Shown here piece after piece: positions 985-57,252 of a DNA stretch of 64,000 nt (positions within the stretch are counted from its first letter, which is position 1; every line of letters starts with the position of its first letter). Location of the stretch: positions 92,963 to 156,962 of the forward strand of contig JANQNB010000010.1 of assembly GCA_028279755.1 (NCBI GenBank), in the 5' to 3' direction. This DNA is from Candidatus Nanoarchaeia archaeon (GTDB lineage Archaea > Nanobdellota > Nanobdellia > Woesearchaeales > UBA525). The notes under the pieces were generated by a model. The model saw only the letters and a program-made list of their open reading frames with translations. It was not told where the DNA came from and did not search any database. The position numbers and the translations under genes were made by a program.

Positions 985-2148
985 TTAGCCGAAAATGCCG
1001 CGGAACCAGCCCAGGAGCTTCTGGAGCATGCCTTTGCTCTCTTCGATGTCCTTGTCCAGGCTCTTGCACTCGGCGTTGTAGCACTGATTACTGGCGCATT
1101 CGTAATCGTTCTGGCACGAGCTGGCGTCGCTCTTCTGCCCTGTGAAGCTGCCGTCGATCGAGCAATAGCTGCCATCAATCCTTGTGCCGTAGGGCAGGCA
1201 GCGCTCTCCTTGTTCGCAGCCGTCGCATTCCTGCACTGGTGGTTCGACTACAGGACAAGCCTCAAACTCGCAGCTCGGCCAGATCCTGGCGACAAAGCTG
1301 CCGTCAGGGCATTGCTTCATCTCCTCTGTGCATCCGGGCACGTCTGGGCATGGCCGGAACGCGCAGTTGTTGTCTGGATCCCGCCCGACGCTCGTGCCGT
1401 CAGGGCAGAGCTTTGCGTCAGCATCGCAGGCAACAGGCTCTGGACACGGCGCCCAGTCGCAATCAGGACCGACACGGCCGACAAAGCTGCCGTCCGGGCA
1501 CATCTTCGCGTCAGCAGTGCAGGCGACTGGGGGAGGATTCACAGGTTCATTTGAGTCTGTGAGCCATTGCAGCGAGATCTCAACCCTGCCTGGATCGCCA
1601 GGCATGATGTCAAAGATGGTGAGCATGATGTCGTCAGGGCTGACCCACTGTTCGCGTTCTTCGAGTGTGGGTGAGGCATGGCCGTTCAGGAGGAACTTAG
1701 CCTCTTTTCGCGTATCGTGGATGTAGGCCGGATTCGCTTCGACTTCGATGCCGTCAAGCCAGAAGACCTTGAGTTCGCCTTCTTCGAATTCAGAGCTTAT
1801 ATAGTGCGGGGCTGGTTGAACTGGAAGGCCGTCCACGCATTCTGTGCCGAAGAATTCGAAGGTGACCTTTCCTTCACGGGATGAGGGGTCGATATCAAGG
1901 ATGACGATTTTCGCACAATGGAGCATATCATACTGGCCTTCGCTTAATGAGCGGGTGACCTCGCCGTTGACCGTGAACTTGCATTCAGGATCCTCGACAG
2001 CAGGATCGCTTACGAAAATCAGGGTCAGCTCGAATTCCATCCCGTTCGAGGTATAGACGTTCGTCTCGCCTTCGCTCATCGTATCTTCGATCGCGAGGCT
2101 TGTTTGTGCGAGTATGACGCAGAGAAATATGATCATCAGTTTCTTCAT
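985..2148 (-). CDS. Secreted cysteine-rich repeat protein. Signal peptide, 3x 'DAKxCPDGSxVGR..PCP' repeats, C-terminal module shared with the 2307..5108 product.
   Basis: N-terminus MKKLMIIFLCVILAQTSLA is a signal peptide. Three tandem ~28-aa Cys repeats (…DAKMCPDGSFVGRVGPDCDWAPCPEP / DAKLCPDGTSVGRDPDNNCAFRPCPD / MKQCPDGSFVARIWPSCEFEACP). The C-terminal tail …CQNDYECASNQCYNAECKSLDKDIEESKGMLQKLLGWFRGIFG is paralogous to the C-terminus of the next gene. Confidence 0.6.
   Translation of the reverse strand: MKKLMIIFLCVILAQTSLAIEDTMSEGETNVYTSNGMEFELTLIFVSDPAVEDPECKFTVNGEVTRSLSEGQYDMLHCAKIVILDIDPSSREGKVTFEFFGTECVDGLPVQPAPHYISSEFEEGELKVFWLDGIEVEANPAYIHDTRKEAKFLLNGHASPTLEEREQWVSPDDIMLTIFDIMPGDPGRVEISLQWLTDSNEPVNPPPVACTADAKMCPDGSFVGRVGPDCDWAPCPEPVACDADAKLCPDGTSVGRDPDNNCAFRPCPDVPGCTEEMKQCPDGSFVARIWPSCEFEACPVVEPPVQECDGCEQGERCLPYGTRIDGSYCSIDGSFTGQKSDASSCQNDYECASNQCYNAECKSLDKDIEESKGMLQKLLGWFRGIFG
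1279..1554 (-). repeat. Coding tandem repeat (3 copies, ~28 aa each) of the CPDGS-type cysteine motif inside the 985..2148 CDS
   Basis: Repeated protein motif visible in the translation; repeated GC-rich DNA segments ('ctgccgtcagggca...', 'gcagagctttgcgtc') at ~1290-1330, ~1390-1430 and ~1480-1520. Confidence 0.5.
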
Positions 2149-2306
2149 GCTTTCACCCGTGACTCTTTTTTGCTTTACCTGTTAAAAAACTTGTCAAAAG
2201 AGTCGTACTCTTCCAGCTCGAGCATGACGAATTCGTACCAGTCCGTTGTTTCCATTTTCCTCTCCAAAAAATGTTGGGAAAAAGGTTTAGGGGTTTTCGG
2301 GGGAGT

Positions 2307-5108
2307 TCAGCCGAATATGTTCCTGATCCAGCTCGCGATGCGCTGGAGCAGGTTGGTGTTCTCTGCGATGTCCAGGTCGAGGCTCTTACAGACTGCGTTG
2401 TAGCATTGGTTGCTGACGCACTCGTAGTCGTTCTGGCATGCGCTGCCGTCCCGTTGCTGGTTCACGAACTCGCCGAAGATGCTGCAATAGGTCGCAACTC
2501 CATTCGCCAGCCGGGTTCCGTATGGGAGGCATCTGCCGTTTGATGCGCAGCCGTCCATGCATTCGGTGGTCGGCTCCTCGTCGTCAGGAGGTGGCATGTC
2601 ATTGTCGTAGCACACGCAGTTCTCGTAGCCCTGGCCGTAGCAGACGAGCTGTCCGTCACACTCAGGGGTTTGCTCCTCGTCGTAGTAGCAGTCGCAATGG
2701 CCCTGGCTGTCGCAATACAGAGTGCCGCCATCCTCGCATTCAGGCTCTGGAACAGCCGGGCAGGGGTAGAATGCGCAGTTGTTGTTCGGATCGCGTCCGA
2801 CAGAGCTGCCGTCAGGGCAGAGCTTTGCGTCGCTGGTGCAATAGGTCGGGTTTGGTGTGGTCCGGTGGCCAGTGATCCAGAACACGACAACGCGGTTGTC
2901 GATGTCCTTGACTGACAAGGCACCGCGGAAGTTGCCGCTGGTGAACCTGCTCGTGCCGCCTTCAGCCACTTGCACTCGTTGCCCGTTCACGCTGAACACG
3001 ACCTGATTGGGAGAAGGCAAGCACTTGCCTGCGCCGGTGCCTGGCTCGCAGTTCGCGACAAAGCCGTAGAACACGCCGTCCACGCACACCTTGAGCTCGT
3101 AGTCGTACAGCTCATAGGTCTCGCATTCGCCTTGCTTCAGCTTACCCTCGACGCCTTCATCAGTGGGCTCGTCGAACAGGGTGATCATGTTCTCAACGAG
3201 CAGGTACTTCCTGCTTGTGCCTGGATAGCCCCTTGAGATTGTCTCGAATCCGTCTCCACGGAGGTGGTGCCAGCCGACATTCGCGAGCTGGTGTTCCTCG
3301 CCGGACATCTTCTTGCCCTTGAGCAGCATGGCGTGCTTCTTGTACAGGACGAAGACCAATCCCGCGGTCAGCTCGCTGTCGTCAAGCTGCTCATACGCGT
3401 CGATGTCAAGCATTGCCATGCCGACCGCGATGGGGTTGACGACTTCCTCATCAGCATGGATAATATCCACTTCAGGTCCTGCTTCCTGGAGTGCTCGCGC
3501 AAGATCGATCGCGTCCAGGATGTCGCTGGTGGGCGCCTGGTGGCCGACAACGATGGTGACATCAGGTTCGTCATTCGGCACGATGTCTGGACACGCTTTT
3601 GGCCAGAGCTCGAAATGCGCAACGCCGACCTGCTCGTCAGCGCTCGGGCTGATGCCGTGGTCGATGCGTGTCACCTTGATGGTGCCGCACCGCAATTCCT
3701 GCTTCTCGCCGACGTGCAATGCGCGGGAGACTTGGCCTTCGAGCATGAACTTCGCGCTTGGCCTGTTATCAAGGCTTGGCGCGTCCTCTGCTGCGCCAGC
3801 ATACTTGTCTTCCCAGTACAGCGGGTTGCTCACCCAGGTGAGAGTGAGCTCGTAGTTGCGGTTGTTGTGCCAGTAGTTCTCAGTGTCGCCTTCTCTGAGG
3901 CTGTCTTCGATTGGCGCAGGCGTGCTGGTCGCGCTGAATTTGCCGATGACTGCCCAGCCAGTGACGTAGTCAGTGTCCAGGAGGTGGAATTTCATACCTT
4001 CTGCTTGACCGTACTGGCCGACACGTACAGTGACTTCCTGGCCCTCGTACTCGCTCGCCCAGACGCTGAACGTGGCGTGGTTCTGCTCTGCGTCTTCGAG
4101 CATGATCTGGTAGCGCTTCCCGTCCAAGTACACAGCGTGCACATCGCCTTCATAGAGTTTGACATAGCCGTGAGGCACAGTGCTGCAGCTGCGTGGCCAG
4201 AAGGTGAATTCTGCCTGTCCCTGGTCGCCGCTCGCTGTCACGCTGTTGCCGATGCTCTCGACCTTGATCGTGCCGCACTCTGTGCTGTCTCGCTCGCCAG
4301 GATGGAGCGCTGCTGTCAGCTCGTCGTTGATCACGAACTTCGCGCTCGGCTGGTTGTCGAGTGGTTGTGCATCAGCAGCCTGTCCGCTTTCATGTTCTTC
4401 ACCGTCTTCCCAGTAGAGGGCGTTGCTCACCCATGCGAGGGTGATCTCGTATTCTTCGCCGCCCCAGTGGTAGGTCTTGGTCTCGCCCTCGCGGAGCGTG
4501 TCCCGGAACGCGTCGTCCATTGGTGGCTCGTCATCGTCCAGCAAGGCTTCGATCTTCTCCTCGAAGGTGCTGTACGGGTGTGCGCCGCTGACAAGCTCGC
4601 CGTTGATGAAGAATGCCGGTGTTCCTCGTACGCCGCGGCCTTCGCCTTCTTCGATGTCATCCTCGACGTCTTCGGCAGTGGAATCCTTGTCCAGGCAATG
4701 GGCCATGCTGCTCTCGTCCATGCCGACCCAGCCAGCCCAGCGGAGATAGTAGTCATAGTCGAGCTGATCCTGGTTATTGTAGACATATTCGATGTATTCG
4801 TACATCACGTCCTTGTCTGCTGCGCATTCGATGGCTTTGGAAGCGTCGAACGCGTTCTGGTGGAAGCTCAGCGGGAAGTGTCGATAGACGATCTTCACGT
4901 CGCCGTCTTCTACGTAGTTCTCATAGATCTCTGGGAATGTGTCGCGGTACCATCTGCCGCAGAACGGGCATTCGGGATCGCTGTACCATTCGATCGTGAC
5001 CGGCGCGTCTTCGTCGCCGAGTGTCTTGTATTTCTCCTGGTATGCGAGCGCTGCTGGCGCGACCATGAGCGCCACTGCGATGAGTGCTATCCATTGTGTC
5101 CATTTCAT
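2307..5108 (-). CDS. Large secreted protein: signal peptide + DsbA/thioredoxin-like domain (CPFC) + two internal ~90-aa repeats + CPDGS cysteine repeat + shared C-terminal module
   Basis: MKWTQWIALIAVALMVAPAALA is a signal peptide. 'WYSDPECPFCGRWY…RHFPLSFHQNAFDA…GTPAFFINGELV' is a DsbA-family thioredoxin fold with a CxxC. Duplicated block (…LREGETKTYHWGGEEYEITLAWVSNALYWEDG…QPLDNQPSAKFVIN…ECGTIKVESIG vs …LREGDTENYWHNNRNYELTLTWVSNPLYWEDK…PSLDNRPSAKFMLE…RCGTIKVTRID). The C-terminus …SDAKLCPDGSSVGRDPNNNCAFYPCP…CQNDYECVSNQCYNAVCKSLDLDIAEN…WIRNIFG matches the 985..2148 product. Confidence 0.65.
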   Translation of the reverse strand: MKWTQWIALIAVALMVAPAALAYQEKYKTLGDEDAPVTIEWYSDPECPFCGRWYRDTFPEIYENYVEDGDVKIVYRHFPLSFHQNAFDASKAIECAADKDVMYEYIEYVYNNQDQLDYDYYLRWAGWVGMDESSMAHCLDKDSTAEDVEDDIEEGEGRGVRGTPAFFINGELVSGAHPYSTFEEKIEALLDDDEPPMDDAFRDTLREGETKTYHWGGEEYEITLAWVSNALYWEDGEEHESGQAADAQPLDNQPSAKFVINDELTAALHPGERDSTECGTIKVESIGNSVTASGDQGQAEFTFWPRSCSTVPHGYVKLYEGDVHAVYLDGKRYQIMLEDAEQNHATFSVWASEYEGQEVTVRVGQYGQAEGMKFHLLDTDYVTGWAVIGKFSATSTPAPIEDSLREGDTENYWHNNRNYELTLTWVSNPLYWEDKYAGAAEDAPSLDNRPSAKFMLEGQVSRALHVGEKQELRCGTIKVTRIDHGISPSADEQVGVAHFELWPKACPDIVPNDEPDVTIVVGHQAPTSDILDAIDLARALQEAGPEVDIIHADEEVVNPIAVGMAMLDIDAYEQLDDSELTAGLVFVLYKKHAMLLKGKKMSGEEHQLANVGWHHLRGDGFETISRGYPGTSRKYLLVENMITLFDEPTDEGVEGKLKQGECETYELYDYELKVCVDGVFYGFVANCEPGTGAGKCLPSPNQVVFSVNGQRVQVAEGGTSRFTSGNFRGALSVKDIDNRVVVFWITGHRTTPNPTYCTSDAKLCPDGSSVGRDPNNNCAFYPCPAVPEPECEDGGTLYCDSQGHCDCYYDEEQTPECDGQLVCYGQGYENCVCYDNDMPPPDDEEPTTECMDGCASNGRCLPYGTRLANGVATYCSIFGEFVNQQRDGSACQNDYECVSNQCYNAVCKSLDLDIAENTNLLQRIASWIRNIFG

Positions 5109-5267
5109 GCTTTCAACCTCGTATCCGTTGTACTGCTGATCTGTGCTGTACAGGGTGTTGGTGACCGCGTACTTAAACTCTCGCCGGTCACAGAGGTAGA
5201 AAAAAGGATAAAATAGTCCCCAAATAATAAAAATAGATAAAAATAATACCCAAAAGAAAGAAGAAGC

Positions 5268-6157
5268 TTATTTCTTTATCAATTCGACGCTTTTCTTCCC
5301 GTTATCGTCGATTTTCAGCAATAATCCGCGTTGCTCCAATCCTTCGAGCGTGCGCAACAGGCTGGTGCGTGGAATCCGGGTGGCGCTCTTGAGCGAGGCG
5401 ATCGTCGCCTTGCCGTCCTGGACGATGAGCTGGTCAGCGATCATGCGCTCTTTCGGCCGGAGCGCGTCGAGGTGGTGCTCAATGGCAAAGCGCTTCTTCG
5501 CCGGCTTCGGGACCTCATCGCCTGGCAGGTCGCTCCGCTTTGTCGTGAAATAGGCCGCTACAGCGAGCACCATGAGCAGCGCGAACACGTAGAAGCTCCA
5601 GTGCAGGCTTTCTTCCGGCGCTGGCGGTGCGCTCACGCTCTGGTTGATGGTCATCGTCGTCTGCAGCACCACGCCTTGTTCGATCACGATGTCGAGGCTG
5701 CCTGCCTTGCCCTGCGCTGCGCTGGTGATCACGCAGCTCTCAGCCGGCAGGAAGGTGCGGAAACGGCCGGTGCCGTCGGTCTCGACAGCGACCTGGCGCG
5801 AGGGGCAGTCGACGACCAAGGGCGTGTGGATGATGAGGTTGTCAGTCGCGTCCCGGAGCTCTCCGAGGAGCAGGCCTGCTGGATGCAAGATCAGCGCGGG
5901 CGGCACCTCGCCAGGAGGAATACGGGCGTAGTACTCGTACGTCTCGGACGCGTTCTCCCGGACGAGCACGAGGAGTTCGTGCGCAGTCTGGTTCGGTAGC
6001 ACTGCCGGTTGTCCAGGCTCGATAAGGTATTCAGTCGCAGTCGCACCCTCAATCCTGACGAAACCGGCAGTGATCTCGCTGCCAGTCTGCGCGTCGATCA
6101 AGACAGTGGCTTCAGCCAGTGGTGCTAAGAGTATGACAAACAGCAATGCGTAGCGCA
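5268..6157 (-). CDS. Membrane-anchored putative transcriptional regulator (signal/TM – extracytoplasmic domain – TM helix – cytoplasmic winged-helix)
   Basis: I start the gene at the internal Met (MRYALLFVILLAPLAEA…) because the longer track ORF (to 6575) runs through the ferritin gene. TM helix WSFYVFALLMVLAVAAYF, then …RMIADQLIVQDGKATIASLKSATRIPRTSLLRTLEGLEQRGLLLKIDDNGKKSVELIKK, a TrmB/MarR-like wHTH. Confidence 0.55.
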
Positions 6158-6202
6158 TTACAATCAAAGAAAGAAGTCGGAATAAAAAAGTTTCGTAGAA
6201 TG

Positions 6203-6706
6203 CTACTCCTTTCCACGCTTTCCGAGCTTGTGGTCGAACATCAGCAAGGAGCCGGCGCTGCCCTTGACCATCTTGAGCTTCTGCACGATCTCGTCCACGC
6301 TCGCCTCTTCCTCGACCTGCTCGTCGATAAACCACTGGAGCAGGCTTTGGCTCGCGTAGTCCTTGGCTTTGACTGCCATGTCCATGAGCTTGTTGATCCT
6401 GCCGGAGATGTACTGTTCGTGCTTGTAGCTGGCTTGGAACGCCGCTAAGGGGCTTTGCCAGCTCTTCGGCGGCGCCTTGATCGCAGTAAGCGTTGGCGTG
6501 CCGCCGCGCTCGACGATGTGTTCGAAGAACTTCATCGCGTGCTCGGTCTCCTCCTGCGCCTGTGCCCGCATCCATTGCGCAAATCCTGGGAAGTTCGCGC
6601 TCTCGAGCCAGGCAGCCATGCCGAGGTAGAGATAGGCTGATTCGAACTCTGCGTTGATCTGGTCATTCATCGCTTTTTCCATTGAAGTACTGAGTGCCAT
6701 GAGCAT
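6203..6706 (-). CDS. Ferritin (ferritin-like di-iron protein)
   Basis: …MNDQINAEFESAYLYLGMAAWLES…FAQWMRAQAQEETEHAMKFFEHIVERGG…ISGRINKLMDMA…LLQWFIDEQVEEE carries the ferritin ferroxidase-centre motifs (E…ExxH…E…QxxEE). The ATG is 3 nt inside the GTG-initiated track ORF. Confidence 0.8.
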   Translation of the reverse strand: MLMALSTSMEKAMNDQINAEFESAYLYLGMAAWLESANFPGFAQWMRAQAQEETEHAMKFFEHIVERGGTPTLTAIKAPPKSWQSPLAAFQASYKHEQYISGRINKLMDMAVKAKDYASQSLLQWFIDEQVEEEASVDEIVQKLKMVKGSAGSLLMFDHKLGKRGKE

Positions 6707-6882
6707 CACCTCTGTTGTACGGAAGGGTGTTGTATTTAAGAATATTTAGTTGAAGTGCGGAAATCGTCGGAGAATCTTCACGCGCGCGGACGCTCTCCGG
6801 ATTCCTGCCTGGCAAGCGAATCTGATCCGATCACGTGCAAGAATCTTCCGTTTTTCCCGTCGAAAGCGAGTTATAAGCTGGA

Positions 6883-8070
6883 ATGCATACGACAGGCATG
6901 GCAACGATCCTCCTGAACGGCATACCCGGCATGCGGAAAGGCGAGCTCGTGCGGCGAGTACAGGCAAACGCAACCCTGTTCGGCGTCGATCGCACGATCC
7001 ATTCGATCTCCCTCGGCGACATCGTCGGCAAGCGGGCGCAGCAGCTTTTCGGAACCCGTCCGGAAGACGTTTGCCGTGCAGACTATTCATATCAGCAAGC
7101 CCTTCGGCGCCTGGCGCAAAGAGAAGCCCTCGAACAATTGGCACGCCTGCCAAGCGATGATCACGTCCTCTTTGATCTGCCGTTCACGCTCTCGACAGAG
7201 CATGGCTCTGTCCCTGACCTTGTCTTCCACCAGGCAGAGATCCAGGAATGGCACGACGCGCGATCGATCGATCATGTCATCTCGCTGCTGGACATTCCTG
7301 AACGTGTCGCTGACCGCCTTGTCGGCACGATCTATCCGAATGATGCGACGAGCAATGCGGATGTCAACAAGATCCTCGATTGGATGGTGTACGACGGGCT
7401 CATGGCCCGCTCCTTGGCACCGTATGATCACACGACATACAATAGCGCGGTTCCAACGCTCGCGATCCCGCGCGACGAAGCAGAGATCACCTTGCTCAAG
7501 ATACTGCACGAAGACGAGCGCGGACAACGCATGCACCAGGATTATCCTGTTGTTTATCTCGCCGGTCCGATCTCGAAGCTGAAAGAGGACCAGAAGGACA
7601 GGCCAAAGGTTCGTGATGAGAAAGCCATGCTTCGCGCCCGTCTTGATCGTTTCCAGGCGAAGATGCAACGCTACGCCATCACGATCGTGCCGATGAAGAT
7701 CGCGGATGCGCGAGCCCACGACGCGACCCAGATCGCGAACACAGTCTATCGCGACAAGCACTTCTTCGTGACTGGCGCAACCTTCACGGTCGCGTACTAT
7801 CCGAGCGCGAACAAGAGCTATCAGAGCGCGGGAACCATGGAGGAGTTGCGCCACGGCCTCCGCCTGGGCAAGCCGGCTGTGCTGATCCATCCAGGCATCA
7901 AGGACGGCGTGACTGCAGACGGTGAGGTCTTCGGCGTCAGGCCGCGCTTATGCTTCCGTAACCAGACACGGTTCTTCGACGCGCTGGAAGAGCACGGGCT
8001 CTTGCAGTCAATGAAGTCAGAAGGGGCTCCGCGCTATGATTGCATGCGCGACGCGATGAGGGTTATATGA
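6883..8070 (+). CDS. Hypothetical protein. N-terminal P-loop-like segment; C-terminal half has a nucleoside 2-deoxyribosyltransferase-like 'VVYLAGPI' Rossmann motif.
   Basis: Long ORF with typical codon usage. 'ILLNGIPGMRKGELV' is a degenerate P-loop; 'YPVVYLAGPISKLKED' resembles the NDT/LOG-fold motif. The function call is an inference only. Confidence 0.5.
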   Translation: MHTTGMATILLNGIPGMRKGELVRRVQANATLFGVDRTIHSISLGDIVGKRAQQLFGTRPEDVCRADYSYQQALRRLAQREALEQLARLPSDDHVLFDLPFTLSTEHGSVPDLVFHQAEIQEWHDARSIDHVISLLDIPERVADRLVGTIYPNDATSNADVNKILDWMVYDGLMARSLAPYDHTTYNSAVPTLAIPRDEAEITLLKILHEDERGQRMHQDYPVVYLAGPISKLKEDQKDRPKVRDEKAMLRARLDRFQAKMQRYAITIVPMKIADARAHDATQIANTVYRDKHFFVTGATFTVAYYPSANKSYQSAGTMEELRHGLRLGKPAVLIHPGIKDGVTADGEVFGVRPRLCFRNQTRFFDALEEHGLLQSMKSEGAPRYDCMRDAMRVI

Positions 8071-9121
8071 TCTTCGAGATGATCCCTTTGTCAGCGTCAA
8101 CCGCGACCTTGTCGCCAGTCTTGAAGTTCCTGGTGGCGTTGAATGCCTGGATGATGCACGGCACGCCGAGCTCGCGCGAGACGACTGCGGCGTGGCTCAA
8201 GAACCCGCCTTGCTCAGCGACGATGGCGCTCGCTTTCTTGCAGAGCAGAATAATGTCAGGGCTGGTGGATTCTGCGATGAGGATGTCGCCTTCGTGCATG
8301 GTCTTGTTGGCTGCAGCGATAGCCTCCTCGTTGTTCAGCATCGGGACCACGACAGCACGGCCCTTCGCCACGCCCGGGTTCGCCGGCACACCCGTGATCT
8401 TGGATGCTGGCTCGTATTTCGTGAAGTCGTCGAACAGCTGCTGCGCTTCCGCTGAGGAGAAGTGGGTTATCTTCCCGTCGATGACTGTGGCTGCATAGCA
8501 TTCCTTGCGTTCCAGAATCAGCTGTTCTGGTGGTAGTTCGCCGCTGAAAAGCGCGAGCAGCTCTTCTCGGTAGAGGTAGCGCGCCCAGTCTTCCTTGAGA
8601 AAGGTCTTTGACAGGTATGCGAGGAGATTGTCGATCACCCCGTCCTTGAAGAAATACGCGTTCATGATTTCGCGCGCAGTGAACTTGAACGTGCTCATGC
8701 GCTCCAAGCGCTCCTTTATTCCCTCGTCTGCTACGCTATAGGCTTCATCAAGGTATGGGAACTCGGCAAAGCCGTAGTAGTACCAAAGCCTGCCGAGAAA
8801 TTCGGAGACAGAGGAGAATTCCTCGAGGGTCATTGTCTCAGGAACCGTGTTGTAGTGCGCGATGACCTCTTTGGCTTCTTCGACATAGTCTTGGAATTCC
8901 TGAAAGAGCGCTTCGAAGCGTTGGGGAGTTCCGTACAGCGCTATCCCTGCCTTGCCAAGCGCTGGCAATTGTTCGCTCTGAAAGAATATGTGATAGTCCT
9001 GGCCCTTGCTCACGAGCAGCAAGTGTGCCTTGGCGAGGCTGCTGTGCAGCAGGAAGTCGTTGTGCAGACAGCTCACTTGTGCTGCAATGCTGAAGAACTT
9101 GGTGTAGTCCGCAGGATCCAT
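8063..9121 (-). CDS. PEP-utilizer 'swivel' phospho-His domain protein, paralog 0 (unknown N-terminal helical domain + C-terminal PEP-utilizers mobile domain)
   Basis: C-terminus …GDILIAESTSPDIILLCKKASAIVAEQGGFLSHAAVVSRELGVPCIIQ matches the His-domain of PpsA/PPDK (E. coli PpsA: GDVLVT.MTDPDW…[29 protein letters not shown]). There is no ATP-grasp domain and no PEP-binding domain. The start overlaps the PCNA stop (ATGA). Confidence 0.7.
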   Translation of the reverse strand: MDPADYTKFFSIAAQVSCLHNDFLLHSSLAKAHLLLVSKGQDYHIFFQSEQLPALGKAGIALYGTPQRFEALFQEFQDYVEEAKEVIAHYNTVPETMTLEEFSSVSEFLGRLWYYYGFAEFPYLDEAYSVADEGIKERLERMSTFKFTAREIMNAYFFKDGVIDNLLAYLSKTFLKEDWARYLYREELLALFSGELPPEQLILERKECYAATVIDGKITHFSSAEAQQLFDDFTKYEPASKITGVPANPGVAKGRAVVVPMLNNEEAIAAANKTMHEGDILIAESTSPDIILLCKKASAIVAEQGGFLSHAAVVSRELGVPCIIQAFNATRNFKTGDKVAVDADKGIISKII

Positions 9122-9858
9122 CAGTCGTTGTCGACTCGTGGCGCCAGGATGAACATGAGCTGCATCTTGTCCTTGACCGTGTAGTCGAGCTTGAGCGGGT
9201 AGTCCTTGCTGAACTGGAGCGAGGCCGTATCTGCGAGCTTGGCACCTTGGATCATCTTCTTGAGATACTCGATCGAGTACTTGCTCTTGGTCTCTTCCTT
9301 GGCCTCGATAGAGGTGCTCTCGTCCGGCAGGATCTCGACTTCCGCCTTGCTCAGGTCAGAAGAGCTGCTGATCCGGAAAGCCTTGCTGTCAGCCATGAAC
9401 GCGACGCTCTCGCCAATGATGTCCACGTCTTCGACCGCGTCGTTGATCACAGCCGCGTCGGTCGAGACTTTTGCTGCGAACTCCAGCGAGGGCACTTTCT
9501 GCTCCTTCTCCTCGACGTCGATGAGCGGCAGCAGGAATTCTCGCTTGCTCTTGCCTTTCAGCGTGACTTTCAGCTTCGCCTCGGGATTCTCGAGCGTGAT
9601 CGTATCGCTCGGCTTCACTCTGCGCAGGACCTGCTTGAGATCGTTGAGATTGATCGCCAAGGTGCGCTCGGTCTTTGCGTCGTATTCGACGAAGCAGCTG
9701 CTCAGGAGCTTGTACACGACCATCGCGACATTCGCCGGGTCCATGGCGATGAGCTCCATGCCGTTCTTGGTCACCTGGAACCGTACTTCTGTGACAAGGT
9801 CTGCGATGATGCTGACGCTCTCCTTGAGAAATTTCGTATCTGCAAGCGTGAGTTTCAT
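9121..9858 (-). CDS. pcn: DNA polymerase sliding clamp PCNA
   Basis: 245 aa. MKLTLADTKFLKESVSIIADLVTEVRF…MELIAMDPANVAMVVYKL…KVSTDAAVINDAVE… has the archaeal PCNA fold signature and length. Confidence 0.85.
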   Translation of the reverse strand: MKLTLADTKFLKESVSIIADLVTEVRFQVTKNGMELIAMDPANVAMVVYKLLSSCFVEYDAKTERTLAINLNDLKQVLRRVKPSDTITLENPEAKLKVTLKGKSKREFLLPLIDVEEKEQKVPSLEFAAKVSTDAAVINDAVEDVDIIGESVAFMADSKAFRISSSSDLSKAEVEILPDESTSIEAKEETKSKYSIEYLKKMIQGAKLADTASLQFSKDYPLKLDYTVKDKMQLMFILAPRVDND

Positions 9859-9946
9859 TATTTCCCCCTCAGTTACCCTTAGAAGAGCGGAGCGCGCGAC
9901 GCTATTTAAAGGTTTTTACAGAATATAAAGCCACAAACGCGTCATC

Positions 9947-10333
9947 TCACTGGAAGAGCTGATCTAGTTCGTCTACGAGGTCACCTTTCTCTATCATGGT
10001 TTTGGGATTCAGGTTGTATTCCTGCGCGACTGCATTGTCGTTCTCAGAGATGTGATTGGACATGAGGATGATCCGCTCTTTGCCAACACCCTGCTCTATC
10101 AGGAATTTCCGCATCTCAGGACCGGCGCGGTAGCTTGGTCCATCTACCCGATCCAAATAGCCGCACATGTCAAGCAAATACAGATCGTACACGTCGCCCA
10201 TTTGCATGAAGAGGTCCTTGCCGGCGGCGACATCCGAGACGCCCGCGACGCTGGTATCAGTCCACCTCATCAACTCGCCAATAATGAAGATCCAATCAGG
10301 ATCATCATCTAGGACAAAAACGTCGATACTCAT
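9947..10333 (-). CDS. Stand-alone CheY-like response-regulator receiver domain protein
   Basis: Started at the internal Met MSIDVFVLDDDPD…, whose ATG overlaps the stop of 10330..11736 (ATGA). Receiver hallmarks present: DD pair (LDDD), phospho-acceptor Asp in 'LYLLDMCGY', S/T in 'ILMSNH', Lys in 'NLNPKT'. No output domain. Confidence 0.6.
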   Translation of the reverse strand: MSIDVFVLDDDPDWIFIIGELMRWTDTSVAGVSDVAAGKDLFMQMGDVYDLYLLDMCGYLDRVDGPSYRAGPEMRKFLIEQGVGKERIILMSNHISENDNAVAQEYNLNPKTMIEKGDLVDELDQLFQ

Positions 10334-11736
10334 ACGATCGCCACCGTACCGTTTTCCGCATCCACGCGGATCCTGTCGCCGTCCTTGATCAGCGTTGTCG
10401 CGTGTCTCGTGCCGATCACACACGGTTTCTTCAGCTCGCGCGCGACGATTGCTGCGTGGCAGGTGATCCCGCCTTCGTCAGTCACGAATGCTGCAGCGCG
10501 TTCCATGGCTGGCAGGTAATCAGGCGTGGTCATTGCGGTCACGAGAATCTCGCCTTTCTGCAAGCGCGCGTTCTCTTTCGGCTCCTGTATCAAGCGGGCG
10601 ACACCTTCAACTGTGCCTGGGAACGCGGTCTGGCCCTTGATCGCCTTGCCTTGCTGGACTTCTTCTCGCAAGGGCTTTGCCGGTGCGTAGATTTGGCGCT
10701 TTTGGATCGTGTTTGTGCCGCCAAAGCTCTGCTTGCGAGCTTCCTTCTTCTGCTCAAGAAGCGCGAGGTCTTGTTTATGGATCGTACAAAGCTCGTCGAA
10801 TGTCAGCCAGTGTATCTCCTGTGCTGGCCAGCCGATCTTCTTGCCGATGAGTTCCAACAATGGCAGGAGCTTGTACGCTGCGAGGTTGATGTTGTCCTTG
10901 ATGAACGTCGGGAAGAAGATCCATTCGCGATATTCCTTGATCAGCTGCTGCTCGTCCTCAGATAATGAGAGTTTTGCGATTGCTGCATTGATTTTTTCTT
11001 CAGTTTTTCTTGACCCTTCTTTGAATTCCTGCAGTTCTTTTTTCGGGTTTTGTATTCCTTTAGCTCTTTTTTTCAGTTCAGCCTGTGTCAACGGCGATCC
11101 CCTGAACCAGTGATAGTTGAGCCAATCAAAATCCCTGATGAACTGTGCATATCCTTCCTCGCTTGGCGCTATTGCGAGTCGCAGCAAGGCTTCTTTCTGC
11201 GCTGTCACGACGGTTTTCTTCAATGGCTCTTGGAACAAGCGCATTGTCGCGTCGAATTCTTCAAGGCGCTCTTGTTCTGCGAGACGTGTGGCGACGATCG
11301 CGCGCACTTGTTCGCCGAGCACTGCGCTCATCTGGACAGAGCCGCGATAGCTGATATAGCCGGTCATCCAGAGGAAGGCTTCGATTTCTTGCTTGAACAA
11401 TGCTGCGAGCTCCTTGAGCGTCTTGTCCTTATGCTGTGCTGGATCGAATGCATACCCCTCAATTGCTTTCACGCGCGCGTAGACTTTCGCAGCCATCTTT
11501 TTTGCATATGTTGTATCTTTCAGCATCAGACGCAGCTCGTCTTCGATCATCCTGATCTCTTCTGCGTCAAAGTAGATGTCGCCGTTCTCATACCTCGTTG
11601 CAGTCAGCCCTTGCGGGATCTCGAACTCCAGAGCACTACGACGCACGCTCTCGTTGTAGATCGACACTGAGAGCACGCTGTTTGTCTTGTTCATGGTCCA
11701 GTGCCATTGGAGCTCGTTTCCTAACGCATTCATCAT
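10330..11736 (-). CDS. PEP-utilizer 'swivel' phospho-His domain protein, paralog 1
   Basis: C-terminus …GEILVTAMTTPDYLPAMERAAAFVTDEGGITCHAAIVARELKKPCVIGTRHATTLIKDGDRIRVDAENGTVAIV. The ~330-aa N-terminus is helical with a W/Y-rich block (…NYHWFRGSPLT…) shared with the paralogs. Confidence 0.75.
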   Translation of the reverse strand: MMNALGNELQWHWTMNKTNSVLSVSIYNESVRRSALEFEIPQGLTATRYENGDIYFDAEEIRMIEDELRLMLKDTTYAKKMAAKVYARVKAIEGYAFDPAQHKDKTLKELAALFKQEIEAFLWMTGYISYRGSVQMSAVLGEQVRAIVATRLAEQERLEEFDATMRLFQEPLKKTVVTAQKEALLRLAIAPSEEGYAQFIRDFDWLNYHWFRGSPLTQAELKKRAKGIQNPKKELQEFKEGSRKTEEKINAAIAKLSLSEDEQQLIKEYREWIFFPTFIKDNINLAAYKLLPLLELIGKKIGWPAQEIHWLTFDELCTIHKQDLALLEQKKEARKQSFGGTNTIQKRQIYAPAKPLREEVQQGKAIKGQTAFPGTVEGVARLIQEPKENARLQKGEILVTAMTTPDYLPAMERAAAFVTDEGGITCHAAIVARELKKPCVIGTRHATTLIKDGDRIRVDAENGTVAIV

Positions 11737-11791
11737 GAAGAAGGAGTGGCATCCGAAACATTTATGTATTCGCTCTCCATTTTTAGAGAGT

Positions 11792-12535
11792 ATGGAGCCT
11801 TCTTTCCTCGAGGAACTCGGCCTGACGCCTGGCGAAGCAAGGATCTACCTCGCATTGCTCGAGCTTGGCGAGAGCAAGGTCGGCAAGGTGATCGAGAAGA
11901 CCGGCATGGCGAGCAGCGCTGTGCACAACGCGCTGAACACAATCGCGGAGAAAGGCCTTGTCACCCATATCCTGCGCGGCAAGATCAAGAATTACCGTGC
12001 AGTCCCGCCGAAACAGCTCCTCGACTATATCGACGACAAGCGGCGGCGCGTCAAGCAGCAGCTGCCTGCATTGCAGAGCCTGCACGCTGCCGCTGATCAG
12101 AAGACTGAAGCTGAGGTATATGAAGGCACGAAAGGCCTCATCACCATGCTCCACGACCTGATCAGCGAGATGACCAAGAAGGACACCTATCGCTTCTTCG
12201 CGCTCGAGCAGGCTGGTCGCAATGAAGAGATCCAGCGCTTCTTCCGGCGCTATGATGTGCTCCGCGCAGAGCGGTGCAAGGCAGTGAAGGGCATCGCGCC
12301 GAGAAAGATCAAGCGCGTTTTCGAAAAGCGGCCACACCTCACAATGCGCTATACAGAGGAAGCCTTGCCGAACAACATGATCATCTGCCGCGACAAGATG
12401 GCCTTCATCAACTGGGATGACAAGCCCAGCGGCGTGCTGATCAGGTCAGCGCAGCTCGCTGCGAAGTACACGCGCTTCTTCGACGCGATGTGGACTAGGC
12501 GATCTTCACGCGCTCGCCGTTCTTCACGATCCTGA
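11792..12535 (+). CDS. TrmB-family transcriptional regulator, divergently transcribed from the PEP-utilizer gene at 11736
   Basis: Started at MEPSFLEELGLTPGEARIYLALLELGESKVGKVIEKTGMASSAVHNALNTIAEKGLV…, the TrmB N-terminal wHTH. The upstream part of the track ORF (from 11687) is a likely over-extension. The 55-bp divergent intergenic region has AT-rich TATA-like sequence. Confidence 0.7.
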   Translation: MEPSFLEELGLTPGEARIYLALLELGESKVGKVIEKTGMASSAVHNALNTIAEKGLVTHILRGKIKNYRAVPPKQLLDYIDDKRRRVKQQLPALQSLHAAADQKTEAEVYEGTKGLITMLHDLISEMTKKDTYRFFALEQAGRNEEIQRFFRRYDVLRAERCKAVKGIAPRKIKRVFEKRPHLTMRYTEEALPNNMIICRDKMAFINWDDKPSGVLIRSAQLAAKYTRFFDAMWTRRSSRARRSSRS

Positions 12536-13922: not shown

Positions 13923-14100
13923 TTTCTAACTCCGAGAGAATCCGAATGGTTTAGGTGCTTCAAAAGCCGCCCAGGCCTCCCGGGCTTTACCCCTATGGGT
14001 TCTCTCTCACAGCGATGCTGTGTATTGCGCTGGAAAAACTGCCAGTCCTTTATAAACCTATGCTTTTTATCGCTTGGAACCTATGTTTTGAAGAATAATT

Positions 14101-14110: not shown

Positions 14111-14114
14111 AAAT

Positions 14115-24178: not shown

Positions 24179-24182
24179 GCCG

Positions 24183-56424: not shown

Positions 56425-57252
56425 TTACGGAGCAGTCACGTCCGCGTCCTTCACGAAGTTGTACGCGATGTCGTGGTACTCGACGCCACCCTCGAGGTCA
56501 GTGCGCGCCTCGTCAGCGTAGTATGCGACGTGCATCGGGACACCCATGAAGGGATCGAGGTACACCTCGTAGTACGAGCCGTCCATCTCGAATTGCACTA
56601 CTTTGACTTCGCGGCTCTCGTGCTGGCGTGTCTCCTTGATGAAGGCGCTGTTCGGGATCCTATCGACCCAGTCAAGGGGGTACTCGATGTCGTAGTCGCT
56701 GAACTTGGCGGTGCGTTCTTCCCCAGGCGTGGAGCAGATGCTTGACCGGTCGCTGAGACAGTAGGCCTTGACTGTCTTGGTCGCCAGGTTCAGGTAGATG
56801 GTGTCGACATGCGTCTCCCTGTCGTATTTCGGCGGCAGGATGGTCTCGACCTTGACCAGGTCTCCCCTGACTGAATACGTGTCGCGGGCGAGCGTCACGA
56901 TCCCGGTTGAGGTCACCTCGATCGGCGCGTGGACGAACTGCATGCTCTGCACTGTCCCGGCCTTGTCGAGCAGGTCGCCGATCACCGGATCCATGGAGCT
57001 GGGAGCGGCGTCCTGATCACCCGTCGAGTCATCTGAATCGTCAGTGCCAGCGTCATCGCTCGGCAGGTCGCTGAAGTCTGTCGGCAGGTTCTCCATCTGC
57101 CGCTCGAGCTCGTCAAGCTGTTCCTGCGCCTGCTGCACCATCGGGCAGTCCTCAGCCTTCTTCACGAATGAGCCGTCCGGGCATCTCGTCGGTTTGACAA
57201 CGCAGGCTGTCACGAAGAGCGCAATAACCAGTAATGCTATGATCGCTTTCAT
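56425..57252 (-). CDS. Secreted lipoprotein-like protein carrying one 'CPDGSFV' cysteine motif
   Basis: Started at MKAIIALLVIALFVTAC (lipobox-like) inside the GTG track ORF. '…KPTRCPDGSFVKKAEDCPM…' shares the CPDGS motif with the 985..2148 and 2307..5108 products; an acidic Asp/Ser-rich linker follows. Confidence 0.55.
   Translation of the reverse strand: MKAIIALLVIALFVTACVVKPTRCPDGSFVKKAEDCPMVQQAQEQLDELERQMENLPTDFSDLPSDDAGTDDSDDSTGDQDAAPSSMDPVIGDLLDKAGTVQSMQFVHAPIEVTSTGIVTLARDTYSVRGDLVKVETILPPKYDRETHVDTIYLNLATKTVKAYCLSDRSSICSTPGEERTAKFSDYDIEYPLDWVDRIPNSAFIKETRQHESREVKVVQFEMDGSYYEVYLDPFMGVPMHVAYYADEARTDLEGGVEYHDIAYNFVKDADVTAP

What the first reader, a model, noticed from the sequence alone, without database searches (positions are those of the whole stretch)
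985..5108. Paralogous secreted cysteine-rich proteins sharing a novel 'DAKxCPDGSxVGR…PCP' repeat and a common C-terminal module; one fused to DsbA
Two adjacent minus-strand genes encode signal-peptide proteins whose last ~110 aa are clearly homologous (…CLPYGTR(I/L)(D/A)G…YCSI(D/F)G(S/E)F…GS(S/A)CQNDYEC(A/V)SNQCYNA(E/V)CKSLD(K/L)DI(E/A)E…W(F/I)R(G/N)IFG).

Both contain a ~28-aa Cys repeat, 3 copies in one protein and 1 in the other. A third secreted protein elsewhere (56425-57252) carries 'TRCPDGSFVKKAEDCPM'.

The larger protein additionally has an N-terminal DsbA-type thioredoxin domain (CPFC) and two internal ~90-aa repeats. That would be an extracytoplasmic oxidoreductase physically fused to a disulfide-rich module.

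The invariant extreme C-terminus (…W.R.IFG) could be a sorting/anchoring signal.
Basis: seen in the sequence. Interest (0 to 1): 0.6.

Follow-up and report, generated by a model that had tools for sequence, protein, structure and literature searches.

The report
DPANN surface proteins sharing a C-terminal module
Two neighbouring genes of a tiny symbiotic-type (DPANN) archaeon encode exported, cysteine-rich envelope proteins, one carrying a disulfide-forming enzyme; both end in an uncatalogued tail found on thousands of DPANN surface proteins, which probably holds them at the cell surface.

Summary
Genes A (985-2148, minus strand) and B (2307-5108, minus strand) are paralogues with signal peptides, CPDG cysteine repeats and a shared C-terminal module of about 85 residues. 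B carries an intact DsbA domain.

- The CPDG repeat is not novel. It occurs in bacteria, archaea and protists, and relatives carry a recent Pfam tag.
- The DsbA fusion is not a one-off. DsbA joined to this same tail recurs across DPANN lineages.

The real interest is the tail. It is an 8-cysteine mini-domain followed by an amphipathic, basic and aromatic helix ending in W..x.FG.
- It defines a family of at least 2,400 cluster representatives.
- It sits almost always at the extreme C-terminus, behind diverse passenger domains (S-layer-like, DsbA, CARDB, Kazal, PKD).
- It matches no Pfam or NCBIfam model.
- The named genomes that carry it are DPANN archaea.

A gene for a membrane-spanning protein with an outside CarboxypepD_reg-like domain and an inside TrmB-like DNA-binding domain lies directly upstream in 35 of 79 genomes. 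The window has it too (5268-6158).

My best reading is a surface-retention module. It would tether DsbA and S-layer-like proteins to the envelope, either through the helix lying in the membrane or by docking to a partner. This is inferred, not shown.

The parts
5268..6158 (-). Conserved upstream gene (296 aa). Layout: signal peptide (6108-6158), extracellular beta region with a CarboxypepD_reg-like domain and two invariant Cys (5601-6107), transmembrane helix (5541-5600), cytoplasmic TrmB-like winged helix (5271-5456).
   Evidence: It belongs to a family found in 37 of 79 genome loci, and in 35 of them it lies directly upstream of the module-bearing gene on the same strand. phmmer E = 1.6e-74 to L004. 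The profile of alignment A8 hits the window ORF at 1.3e-76. Pfam on A8: CarboxypepD_reg in 25 of 30 members, TrmB in 24 of 30, DUF7343 in 16 of 30; the window member itself reaches only TrmB E = 0.007. The ATG at 6158-6156 was read from the sequence.
2307..5108 (-). Gene B, 933 aa: exported multi-domain envelope protein carrying DsbA.
   Evidence: ORF. The identical protein is on record from an NCBI/Logan contig of 191 kb.
5043..5108 (-). B signal peptide (residues 1-22, ...APAALA|YQ).
   Evidence: Sequence; N-terminal hydrophobic segment.
4539..5024 (-). B DsbA-type thioredoxin domain (29-190) with active site C47-P-F-C50 and a GTP cis-Pro-type loop.
   Evidence: Pfam Thioredoxin_4 7e-29, DSBA 1e-14. 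PDB sequence matches: 4pwp 'DsbA' 2e-18, BdbD 3eu3 5e-14, with ECPFC and GTPAF aligned.
4194..4517 (-). B 'EGET' beta domain, copy 1 (198-305).
   Evidence: 48% identical to copy 2, E = 6e-34. Profile search.
3924..4175 (-). B divergent beta domain (312-395), weakly EGET-like.
   Evidence: Weak BLASTP match to the A N-terminus, E = 6e-4.
3600..3920 (-). B 'EGET' beta domain, copy 2 (397-503).
3159..3590 (-). B S-layer-like region (507-650; 'DVTIVVGHQAPTSDILDAIDLARAL...').
   Evidence: Sub-threshold Pfam S_layer_C hit (E = 0.0025, 17.9 bits against a cut-off of 23.9). phmmer links to family members that do hit S_layer_C.
2868..3149 (-). B 'EGET' beta domain, copy 3 (654-747), with extra cysteines.
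   Evidence: Profile search.
2754..2846 (-). B single CPDG 4-Cys repeat (755-785).
2607..2741 (-). B two small 4-Cys units 'EC..G...C....C.CY' (790-834). Also present in relatives P0003 and P0006.
   Evidence: Read from the sequences. phmmer hit to P0129.
2388..2567 (-). B C-terminal 8-Cys mini-domain (848-907).
   Evidence: Alignments A1 and A2; family search.
2310..2387 (-). B terminal amphipathic helix (908-933, ...LLQRIASWIRNIFG).
   Evidence: AF2 helix in the paralogue model; hydrophobic moment 0.75.
985..2148 (-). Gene A, 387 aa: paralogue without DsbA.
2092..2148 (-). A signal peptide (1-19, ...TSLA|IE).
1828..2091 (-). A 'EGET' beta domain, copy 1 (20-107).
   Evidence: AF2 model with pLDDT 95.4, seven strands. 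Homology to the B repeats, E about 1e-12.
1549..1812 (-). A 'EGET' beta domain, copy 2 (113-200), divergent.
   Evidence: phmmer reciprocal hits within A; profile search.
1249..1527 (-). A three tandem CPDG 4-Cys repeats (208-300).
1066..1236 (-). A C-terminal 8-Cys mini-domain (305-361).
   Evidence: AF2 model with pLDDT 89, small beta structure; conserved columns.
988..1065 (-). A terminal amphipathic helix (362-387, ...MLQKLLGWFRGIFG).
57136..57210 (-). Degenerate single CPDG unit (3 of 4 Cys) directly after a lipobox-like VTAC in a third exported protein (gene 56425-57261). That protein has no C-terminal module.
   Evidence: No module hit elsewhere in the window.

Best explanation
Genes A and B are Sec-exported envelope proteins of a DPANN (Woesearchaeota-like) archaeon. 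Together with the gene upstream (5268-6158) they form a cassette that is conserved across DPANN genomes.

Each protein is a string of extracellular modules:
- 'EGET' beta domains and an S-layer-like region, acting as a stalk or lattice part;
- disulfide-stapled CPDG repeats, acting as rigid spacers;
- a family-defining C-terminal module: an 8-cysteine mini-domain followed by a helix of about 25 residues.

The last 14 residues of that helix are amphipathic, basic and aromatic, and end in W..x.FG.

I propose that this module keeps the protein at the cell surface after the signal peptide is removed. The terminal helix would lie in the plane of the outer leaflet of the cytoplasmic membrane. The conserved mini-domain would act as a pedestal or docking surface. 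B would then be the cell's surface-tethered DsbA oxidase, which an organism with no outer membrane must tether. A would be a structural paralogue.

**Shown:** paralogy, domain content, an intact DsbA motif set, the size of the family, the terminal position, the diversity of cargo domains, restriction of the listed genomes to DPANN-labelled archaea, and the conserved upstream neighbour.

**Inferred:** export, disulfide formation, and above all the anchoring role and its mechanism.
For: - **Position.** The module lies within 7 residues of the C-terminus in 146 of 153 proteins.
- **Family size.** 2,403 cluster representatives at E <= 1e-3 and 658 at E <= 1e-10.
- **Varied cargo.** Among 89 representatives: S_layer_C in 18, DsbA in 11, CARDB in 8, Kazal in 8, plus PKD, dockerin and Ig-like domains. 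Most have a hydrophobic N-terminus.
- **DsbA link.** 8 of the 9 DsbA ORFs in the fetched loci carry the module.
- **Structure.** The AF2 model has pLDDT 89: a small beta mini-domain and one helix spanning residues 60-82.
- **Tail properties.**
  - Mean hydrophobic moment 0.66 against 0.43 in shuffles.
  - Net charge about +1.5 and about 2.7 aromatic residues in the last 16.
  - Hydrophobic columns at profile positions 71, 72, 75, 76, 78, 79, 82 and 83; K/R at 74 (83%) and at 80/81.
  - Short variants drop the acidic first half of the helix but keep the tail 'GLIQRIIKWFLSLFG'.
- **No other anchor.** A and B have no transmembrane segment other than the signal peptide.
- **Composition.** A, B and the third exported protein are acidic (D+E 18%, K+R 7-9%), while the other proteins of the window are balanced, as expected for an exposed surface.
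- **Taxonomy.** The listed genome hits are labelled Woesearchaeota, Pacearchaeota, Nanoarchaeota, Diapherotrites or Nanohaloarchaea, apart from generically labelled and 'uncultured Methanosarcinales' genomes assembled from metagenomes (MAGs).
- **Precedents (from my own knowledge).** DsbA homologues of monoderm bacteria (BdbD, MdbA, Mt-DsbA) are membrane-tethered; PMC3853704 calls Mt-DsbA membrane-tethered. A C-terminal in-plane amphipathic helix anchors pestivirus Erns (PMC4536213).
Against: - There is no experimental evidence of location.
- The hydrophobic stripe of the helix also fits a heptad pattern (profile positions 61, 65, 68, 71/72, 75, 78/79, 82), so a coiled-coil or bundle role cannot be separated from membrane binding by sequence alone.
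- The strong conservation of polar surface residues in the mini-domain (G-T-R, Q-N-N-Y-E, S-N) suggests a specific binding partner rather than a passive pedestal.
- The z-score of the hydrophobic moment is only about 2.
- No DsbB or VKOR partner was found in the 64-kb window, although most of the genome was not seen.
- The signal peptide of B could be an uncleaved anchor, which would make a second anchor unnecessary.
Confidence: 0.5

Rival explanations
1. **Docking module.** The 8-Cys mini-domain binds the extracellular CarboxypepD_reg-like domain of the membrane-spanning protein encoded directly upstream. That protein would be the true membrane anchor. Through its cytoplasmic winged helix it could also report surface-protein occupancy to transcription.
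For: - The upstream family is next to the module gene in 35 of 79 loci, on the same strand, usually 4-200 nt away.
- The passenger domains of the downstream gene vary (S_layer_C 9, DsbA 6, CARDB 6, Kazal 5 of 35), so the module is the only constant partner.
- Polar surface residues of the mini-domain are conserved.
- The upstream protein has a signal peptide, two invariant ectodomain Cys, one transmembrane helix and a TrmB-like domain.
Against: - Adjacency is equally explained by ordinary transcriptional control of the neighbouring gene.
- Only about half of the loci show the neighbour.
- Several module genes can occur per locus with a single upstream gene, so the stoichiometry is unclear.
- No interaction was computed or measured.
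Confidence: 0.2
2. **Assembly module.** The terminal helix forms a coiled coil or helical bundle and the mini-domain forms lattice contacts. The module would then oligomerise envelope proteins into an S-layer or stalk rather than bind lipid.
For: - The helix shows heptad-like spacing of hydrophobic columns.
- S_layer_C is the commonest passenger domain (18 of 89).
- 37 of 153 proteins have 2-4 copies of the mini-domain part.
- SlaB-type stalks use coiled coils (review PMC5744192).
Against: - The helix is short (about 25 residues).
- Short variants retain only the 14-residue basic and aromatic tail.
- The strict requirement for the extreme C-terminus and the invariant terminal F-G are not typical of coiled coils.
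- An enzyme such as DsbA has no obvious need to sit in a lattice.
Confidence: 0.15
3. **The first reader's reading.** DsbA is fused to a disulfide-rich module because the enzyme acts on, or works together with, the Cys-rich part of the same polypeptide, as a self-contained oxidative-folding unit.
For: - B combines CPFC-type DsbA with 28 further cysteines.
- The organism exports many Cys-rich proteins, so an extracellular oxidase is needed.
Against: - The same tail sits behind many non-redox passenger domains.
- Paralogue A has the same Cys-rich parts without DsbA.
- Family members with 2-3 tandem DsbA domains have only the tail as their Cys-rich part.
Confidence: 0.08
4. **Processed sorting signal.** The conserved W..x.FG end is recognised and cleaved or modified by a dedicated enzyme (analogous to archaeosortase or sortase), and the protein is then attached covalently to lipid or to the S-layer.
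For: Strict C-terminal position and a near-invariant terminal F-G.
Against: - There is no transmembrane helix and no terminal basic cluster, which define the exosortase, archaeosortase and sortase signals.
- No NCBIfam sorting-signal model matches.
- No conserved enzyme-like neighbour emerged from the neighbourhood clustering; the only recurrent neighbour is the winged-helix membrane protein.
Confidence: 0.04
5. **Host-contact or fusion proteins.** The EGET beta domains resemble domain I of class II membrane-fusion proteins, so these proteins might mediate attachment or membrane fusion between the DPANN cell and its host.
For: - From my own knowledge, DPANN archaea depend on cell contact with hosts.
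Against: - Foldseek finds no match better than E = 0.29.
- Only a single small beta domain is matched. There is no domain II with a fusion loop, no domain III and no transmembrane anchor.
Confidence: 0.03

Closest known systems
Membrane-tethered DsbA homologues of bacteria without an outer membrane (B. subtilis BdbD, actinobacterial MdbA / Mt-DsbA)
   Same: The DsbA domain of B is closest in sequence to exactly these proteins: 4pwp 2e-18, BdbD 3eu3 5e-14, with ECPFC and GTPAF aligned. Both are exported and must stay at the cell surface.
   Different: From my own knowledge those enzymes are tethered by an N-terminal transmembrane helix or a lipid. B has a cleavable-looking signal peptide, about 650 residues of beta domains, and the C-terminal Cys mini-domain plus amphipathic helix. 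No DsbB or VKOR partner was seen in the window.
C-terminal in-plane amphipathic-helix membrane anchors (E. coli PBP5/DacA; pestivirus Erns, PMC4536213)
   Same: Extreme C-terminal position, amphipathic helix, basic and aromatic residues, no transmembrane segment. The hydrophobic moment is comparable to the FtsA and PBP5 tails as I recalled those sequences.
   Different: Here the helix always follows a conserved 8-Cys domain and ends in a near-invariant F-G. Membrane binding has not been tested. There is no sequence relationship.
Archaeosortase/exosortase C-terminal sorting signals (PGF-CTERM, PEF-CTERM, PEP-CTERM and others)
   Same: A short conserved element at the very C-terminus of many otherwise unrelated exported proteins within one lineage.
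   Different: Those signals are a motif, then a transmembrane helix, then a basic tail, and they are processed by a dedicated enzyme. This module has no transmembrane helix, no model match and no enzyme neighbour.
Archaeal S-layer families (Pfam S_layer_C PF05124 / TIGR01564; Methanosarcina DUF1608)
   Different: A has no S-layer match at all, and B's hit is below threshold. The C-terminal module is not part of the described S-layer families.
CPDG 4-Cys repeat, probably Pfam PF27023 (not held in the local Pfam copy)
   Same: Same C-x6-C-P-D-G-S-x-V-x-R-x3-5-C-x-F-x2-C-P unit in tandem arrays, often just after a signal peptide, lipobox or membrane anchor.
   Different: Nothing separates the window's copies from the widespread ones. 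The equation with PF27023 is my inference from the fact that the repeat is the only element shared by the tagged proteins. I could not read the family's name or definition.
Dickkopf N-terminal / colipase-prokineticin / IGFBP-N small disulfide-rich folds
   Different: The scores are too low to claim a shared fold. Those are eukaryotic signalling domains.

Membership tests
DsbA family (Pfam Thioredoxin_4 / DSBA) | Profile match above the curated threshold over the whole domain | tested here: met
   Thioredoxin_4 101.6 bits (cut-off 23.2), profile positions 7-164 of 165. DSBA 54.9 bits (cut-off 25.6).
DsbA family (Pfam Thioredoxin_4 / DSBA) | CxxC active site and cis-Pro loop at the homologous positions | tested here: met
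   ECPFC aligns with ECPFC, and GTPAF with GTPAF, of the solved chain 4pwp.
DsbA family (Pfam Thioredoxin_4 / DSBA) | Export to the extracytoplasmic side | tested here: met
   N-terminal hydrophobic segment followed by ALA|YQ. Judged from the sequence only; no predictor was run.
DsbA family (Pfam Thioredoxin_4 / DSBA) | A re-oxidising partner (DsbB or VKOR) in the genome | tested here: inconclusive
   None was seen among the window's ORFs: the top 25 Pfam families of 60 ORFs, polytopic ORFs with cysteines. Only 64 kb of the genome was available.
DsbA family (Pfam Thioredoxin_4 / DSBA) | Thiol-oxidase activity | not testable with these tools
   Needs a biochemical assay.
Archaeosortase/exosortase-type C-terminal sorting signals (e.g. 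PGF-CTERM) | Signature motif followed by a transmembrane helix and a basic cluster at the C-terminus | tested here: not met
   Neither A nor B has a hydrophobic 19-residue window apart from the signal peptide. The tail is amphipathic and ends in F-G.
Archaeosortase/exosortase-type C-terminal sorting signals (e.g. PGF-CTERM) | Match to a curated sorting-signal model | tested here: not met
   NCBIfam gives no hit at E <= 1 for A, and only thioredoxin or S-layer models for B.
S-layer protein family (Pfam S_layer_C PF05124 / TIGR01564) | Profile match above the curated threshold | tested here: not met
   B 507-539: 17.9 bits against a cut-off of 23.9; TIGR01564 10 bits against 25. A has no hit. 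Other family members do pass.
CPDG repeat family (Pfam PF27023, presumed) | Profile match to PF27023 | not testable with these tools
   The model is absent from the local Pfam copy. Relatives found with A carry the precomputed tag and share only this repeat. A itself carries no tag.
CPDG repeat family (Pfam PF27023, presumed) | 4-Cys unit C-x6-CPDGS-x-V-x-R-...-C-x-F-x2-CP in tandem | tested here: met
   Four full copies in A and B align with 8 invariant columns and at 45-67% identity to repeats in bacterial and eukaryotic proteins.
Class II membrane-fusion proteins / fusexins | Three-domain ectodomain (I, II with a fusion loop, III) plus a transmembrane anchor | tested here: not met
In-plane amphipathic-helix membrane anchors (functional class, not a homologous family) | Terminal helix with a high hydrophobic moment, basic and aromatic residues | tested here: met
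   Helix in the AF2 model. Hydrophobic moment 0.66 against 0.43 in shuffles, net charge +1.5, 2.7 aromatic residues. Column profile.
In-plane amphipathic-helix membrane anchors (functional class, not a homologous family) | Demonstrated lipid binding | not testable with these tools
   Needs liposome or fractionation experiments.
DPANN C-terminal 'Cys mini-domain + W..x.FG helix' family (defined here) | Eight conserved Cys, G-T-R, Q-N-N-Y-E-C-x-S-N-x-C, terminal helix ending in W..x.FG, at the protein's C-terminus | tested here: met
   A and B score 1e-36 and 1e-40 against the profile and 3e-34 and 4e-35 against A2. All invariant columns are present.

The most novel reading that the evidence does not exclude
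The C-terminal mini-domain and the gene upstream form a surface-protein docking and signalling system specific to DPANN archaea. Diverse exported proteins (S-layer-like proteins, DsbA, protease inhibitors, adhesin-like domains) would all plug, through the same 8-Cys domain and helix, into the ectodomain of a single-pass membrane protein. The cytoplasmic winged helix of that protein would then adjust transcription according to what is docked outside. This would be a new way to build and monitor an archaeal cell envelope, in organisms whose surface governs their dependence on hosts.
Probability: 0.15. Interest if true: 0.8.

Novelty: new variant of a known kind. Interest (0 to 1): 0.58.

Why it matters
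DPANN archaea make up a large share of archaeal diversity. From my own knowledge, they live by surface contact with other cells, and almost nothing is known about how their envelopes are built.

This finding offers several concrete handles:
- One uncatalogued C-terminal module marks thousands of their exported proteins, including S-layer-like proteins and the disulfide oxidase DsbA. That gives a way to list the surface proteome of any Woesearchaeota, Pacearchaeota or Nanoarchaeota genome.
- It gives a testable anchoring mechanism. The peptide and mini-domain are small enough for liposome, NMR or crystallography work.
- It identifies a candidate partner or regulator gene.
- It suggests that extracellular disulfide chemistry is central to these organisms.

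If the module is only a structural domain of unknown role, the result is still a useful new domain family and a correction of the claim that the repeat is novel.

Tried and rejected
- **Pfam and NCBIfam on A, B and the third protein.** Nothing matched except DsbA and a weak S-layer hit. The local Pfam copy lacks PF27023 and PF27300, so the repeat's catalogue entry could not be read.
- **Word-indexed profile searches of the module.** They returned only 3 and 11 short proteins. The exhaustive search was needed to see the family.
- **Exact look-up of A on contigs.** Not on record. Cluster look-up gave no names, so the organism is inferred from context and relatives.
- **PDB sequence search of A.** No meaningful hit.
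- **Fold searches.**
  - The afdb50 library was unavailable.
- **Structure prediction.**
  - A composite alignment for a full-length model of A was abandoned because MAFFT split the fragments across domains.
- **Search for DsbB or VKOR in the window.** None found.
- **Viral contigs.** No relative of the module.
- **Literature searches.** Searches on DPANN or Woesearchaeota with cysteine-rich, S-layer, DsbA or amphipathic helix, and on DUF7343, found no description of the module or the cassette.
- **Halophily as the cause of the acidity.** Rejected: only the exported proteins are acidic.

Full report
**1. What is in the sequence**

Region 985-5108 holds two minus-strand ORFs.
- A (985-2148) is 387 aa with 24 cysteines.
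- B (2307-5108) is 933 aa with 32 cysteines.

Both start with a hydrophobic segment followed by an A-x-A site. Both are acidic (D+E 18%, K+R 7%). The non-exported proteins of the window are charge-balanced, so the acidity belongs to the exported proteins and is not a sign of a halophile.

BLASTP aligns the last 185 residues of A and B at 48% identity (E = 8e-46). It also aligns the N-terminus of A with two internal stretches of B (E about 1e-12). The last bases before the two start codons are nearly the same (…TGAAAGCATGAA). The genes are therefore paralogues.

**2. Organism and context**

The window is archaeal and of DPANN type.
- It encodes PCNA, archaeal RNase J and beta-CASP proteins.
- It encodes a form-III-like RuBisCO next to an AMP-phosphorylase-like gene and an IF-2B-family gene.

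The closest relatives of A and B lie on contigs labelled Candidatus Woesearchaeota (L004) or on an archaeal metagenome contig that carries PCNA. The exact proteins are on record from an NCBI/Logan contig of 191 kb, without a name.

**3. Domain anatomy**

*B*
- Signal peptide: 1-22.
- DsbA domain: 29-190.
  - Thioredoxin_4 7e-29, DSBA 1e-14.
  - Best solved relatives are 4pwp 'DsbA' and BdbD.
  - ECPFC and GTPAF align residue for residue with 4pwp.
- 'EGET' beta domain: three clear copies (198-305, 397-503, 654-747) and one weak copy (312-395).
- S-layer-like stretch: 507-650, with S_layer_C at E = 0.0025, below threshold.
- One CPDG repeat: 755-785.
- Two small 'C..C.CY' units: 790-834.
- C-terminal module: 848-933.

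*A*
- Signal peptide: 1-19.
- Two EGET domains: 20-107 and 113-200.
- Three CPDG repeats: 208-300.
- C-terminal module: 305-387.

*The EGET domain*
- An iterated profile finds 154 copies in 63 proteins of my local set of relatives, up to five in tandem.
- It has no Pfam match.
- Its AF2 model is confident (pLDDT 95.4) and all-beta with seven strands.
- Foldseek finds nothing better than E = 0.29.
- I read it as an S-layer-type beta module and treat the fusion-protein likeness as a weak lead.

**4. The CPDG repeat is not novel**

A search with A returned 125 proteins. Most of them match only the repeat region. They include Patescibacteria and Daviesbacteria proteins, a Labilithrix protein, a diatom (Pseudictyota) protein and another eukaryotic transcript.

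The unit is the same throughout: C-x6-CPDGS-x-V-x-R-x3-5-C-x-F-x2-CP. It is often in tandem and often sits directly after a signal peptide, lipobox or membrane anchor.

Many of these proteins carry the precomputed tag PF27023.1. The repeat is the only element the tagged proteins share, so that tag probably models it. I could not read the entry because the local Pfam copy lacks it.

It has no C-terminal module.

Four cysteines in about 28 residues with conserved prolines suggest a rigid spacer stapled by two disulfides. That is an inference.

**5. The C-terminal module is the notable part**

*Size and position*
- A profile of five sequences, searched exhaustively against 1.84 billion cluster representatives, found 2,403 proteins at E <= 1e-3 and 658 at E <= 1e-10.
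- In the best 153 proteins, the module ends within 7 residues of the C-terminus in 146.
- The proteins are 78-1,526 aa long, and most have a hydrophobic N-terminus.
- 37 of them repeat the cysteine part two to four times, but the helix occurs only at the end.

*Conserved columns*
- Eight cysteines.
- G-x-C, L-P-Y-G-T-R, Y-C and Q.
- C-Q-N-N-Y-E-C-x-S-N-x-C-x-x-G-x-C.
- Then L…L-x-E-T-x-G-L-L-x-K-I-x-x-W-L-x-x-x-F-G.

*Catalogue status*
- Neither Pfam nor NCBIfam matches it.
- None of the relatives carries a precomputed Pfam tag over it.

*Structure*
- The AF2 model (pLDDT 89) is a small beta mini-domain followed by a single helix over residues 60-82.

*Taxonomy*
- A scan of one genome per GTDB species confirmed 428 stretches.
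- Among the 80 listed, the informative labels are Woesearchaeota, Pacearchaeota, Nanoarchaeota, Diapherotrites and Nanohaloarchaea.
- The rest are generic 'archaeon' labels or 'uncultured Methanosarcinales' genomes assembled from metagenomes (MAGs), whose label I could not verify.
- Viral contigs hold no relative.

**6. What rides on the module**

Among 89 representatives, Pfam finds:
- S_layer_C in 18;
- DsbA-type domains in 11;
- CARDB in 8;
- Kazal in 8;
- PKD, dockerin, Ig-like and other domains in a few each.

In the wider set, 17 proteins carry DsbA, some with two or three tandem copies. P0126 and locus L033 repeat B's own 'DsbA + EGET + module' design. Eight of the nine DsbA ORFs in the fetched loci carry the module.

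The DsbA fusion is therefore a conserved design, and DsbA is one cargo among many. This argues against a special DsbA-substrate coupling and in favour of a general retention or assembly function.

**7. A conserved neighbour**

I clustered all ORFs in the 79 genome loci. One family that lacks the module is present in 37 loci. In 35 of them it lies directly upstream of the module gene on the same strand, mostly 4-200 nt away.

The window's ORF directly upstream of B is a member: 5268-6158, with the start read, 159 nt from B. It scores E = 1.6e-74 to L004 and 1.3e-76 to the family profile.

The family has this layout:
- a signal peptide;
- a CarboxypepD_reg-like ectodomain with two invariant cysteines;
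- one transmembrane helix;
- a cytoplasmic TrmB-like winged helix.

Pfam on 30 members gives CarboxypepD_reg in 25, TrmB in 24 and DUF7343 in 16. NCBIfam has no model for it.

The downstream passenger domains vary in these 35 loci (S_layer_C 9, DsbA 6, CARDB 6, Kazal 5). The association is therefore with the module, not with a particular cargo. Module genes also occur in tandem elsewhere, as A and B do here.

**8. How it most likely works**

*Export and disulfide formation.* These are inferred from the signal peptides, the cysteine patterns and the presence of DsbA.

*Retention.* After signal-peptide cleavage neither A nor B has a transmembrane segment, yet an extracellular DsbA must stay with the cell. 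The last 14 residues of the module have these properties:
- a high hydrophobic moment: mean 0.66 against 0.43 for shuffles, z about 2;
- net positive charge and about 2.7 aromatic residues in the last 16;
- a hydrophobic face formed by profile columns 71, 72, 75, 76, 78, 79, 82 and 83.

Short variants keep this tail and drop the acidic first half of the helix. This is the signature of an in-plane membrane anchor. Known examples are the Erns C-terminus (PMC4536213) and, from my own knowledge, the PBP5, FtsA and MinD tails.

I therefore favour surface retention through the module (confidence about 0.5). Docking to the upstream membrane protein (0.2) and oligomerisation (0.15) are live alternatives, and they could coexist with lipid binding.

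A processed sorting signal is unlikely:
- there is no transmembrane helix;
- no sorting-signal model matches;
- no enzyme-like gene recurs nearby.

**9. Comparison, novelty and verdict**

- The DsbA domain is an ordinary family member in an unusual architecture.
- The CPDG repeat is already widespread and apparently catalogued.
- I found no description of the C-terminal module, the EGET domain or the cassette with the membrane-tethered winged-helix protein in any family library or in the searchable literature. That search does not cover subscription journals.
- In kind, the module resembles known surface-retention devices, so I rate it a new variant of a known kind.
- Interest is moderate to high for archaeal envelope and DPANN biology. 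It is limited by the absence of any experimental evidence.

Noticed in passing
window 8063-19471 (-): Six mostly tandem paralogous genes (8063-9121, 10330-11736, 14115-15359, 15356-16654, 16647-18068, 18065-19471). Each has only a C-terminal PEP-utilizers mobile domain (PF00391) and an N-terminal part of about 280-400 aa with no Pfam match.
   Followed up: no
window 20093-20194 (-): Rfam finds a tRNA of 102 nt that covers the whole 71-position model (45.7 bits), while ARAGORN reports no tRNA in the window. This probably reflects an intron-containing archaeal tRNA.
   Followed up: no
window 21831-25568 (-): An IF-2B-family gene, an AMP-phosphorylase-like gene (Glycos_transf_3 + PYNP_C) and RuBisCO large subunit lie in a row. 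This is the archaeal nucleotide-salvage trio typical of DPANN genomes.
   Followed up: partly
window 48368-52453 (-) and 47499-48404 (-): A 1,361-aa exported ORF with no Pfam match and very low charge (D+E 7%, K+R 3%). It is followed by a 301-aa ORF with a signal peptide and a C-terminal transmembrane helix, also without a Pfam match.
   Followed up: no
window 35593-37614 (+) and 28230-30491 (+): Other exported proteins in the same window use different retention devices. One is a Lamin-tail-domain protein with a C-terminal transmembrane helix at about residue 649. The other is an acidic DUF6055 protein with a lipobox-like 'LVSCSC' start.
   Followed up: no
window 6203-6709 (-): A ferritin gene ends 45 nt upstream of the cassette's first gene. 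The long ORF 5268-6575 listed mechanically overlaps it, so the real start of the cassette gene is the ATG at 6158, preceded by a T-rich TATA-like stretch.
   Followed up: yes
window 2149-2165 and 5109-5125: The bases just before the start codons of A and B are nearly identical (GGTGAAAGC-ATG and GGTTGAAAGC-ATG). This fits a gene duplication that included the ribosome-binding region.
   Followed up: no
L028:4312-11197; L004:4204-7154; L041:5350-7824: Module-bearing genes lie in tandem in other DPANN genomes too: three in a row in a Nanoarchaeota single-cell genome, and two in the Woesearchaeota contig closest to the window.
   Followed up: partly
L035 and other loci (e.g. L006, L011, L014): Many genomes that carry the module and the upstream gene are labelled 'uncultured Methanosarcinales' (MAGs, i.e. 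genomes assembled from metagenomes, from the 'binchicken' isolate series). The gene content looks like that of the Woesearchaeota loci, so the label may be a placeholder. I did not check this.
   Followed up: no
proteins P0004, P0005, P0007, P0009, P0015, P0026, P0035: A group of bacterial-looking lipoproteins combines CPDG repeats with a conserved N-terminal Cys domain ('SDG.PTGDG..CSW.GT...PDGCN.C.C...GI.CT...C'). One of them carries the tag PF27300 and a Kunitz domain.
   Followed up: no
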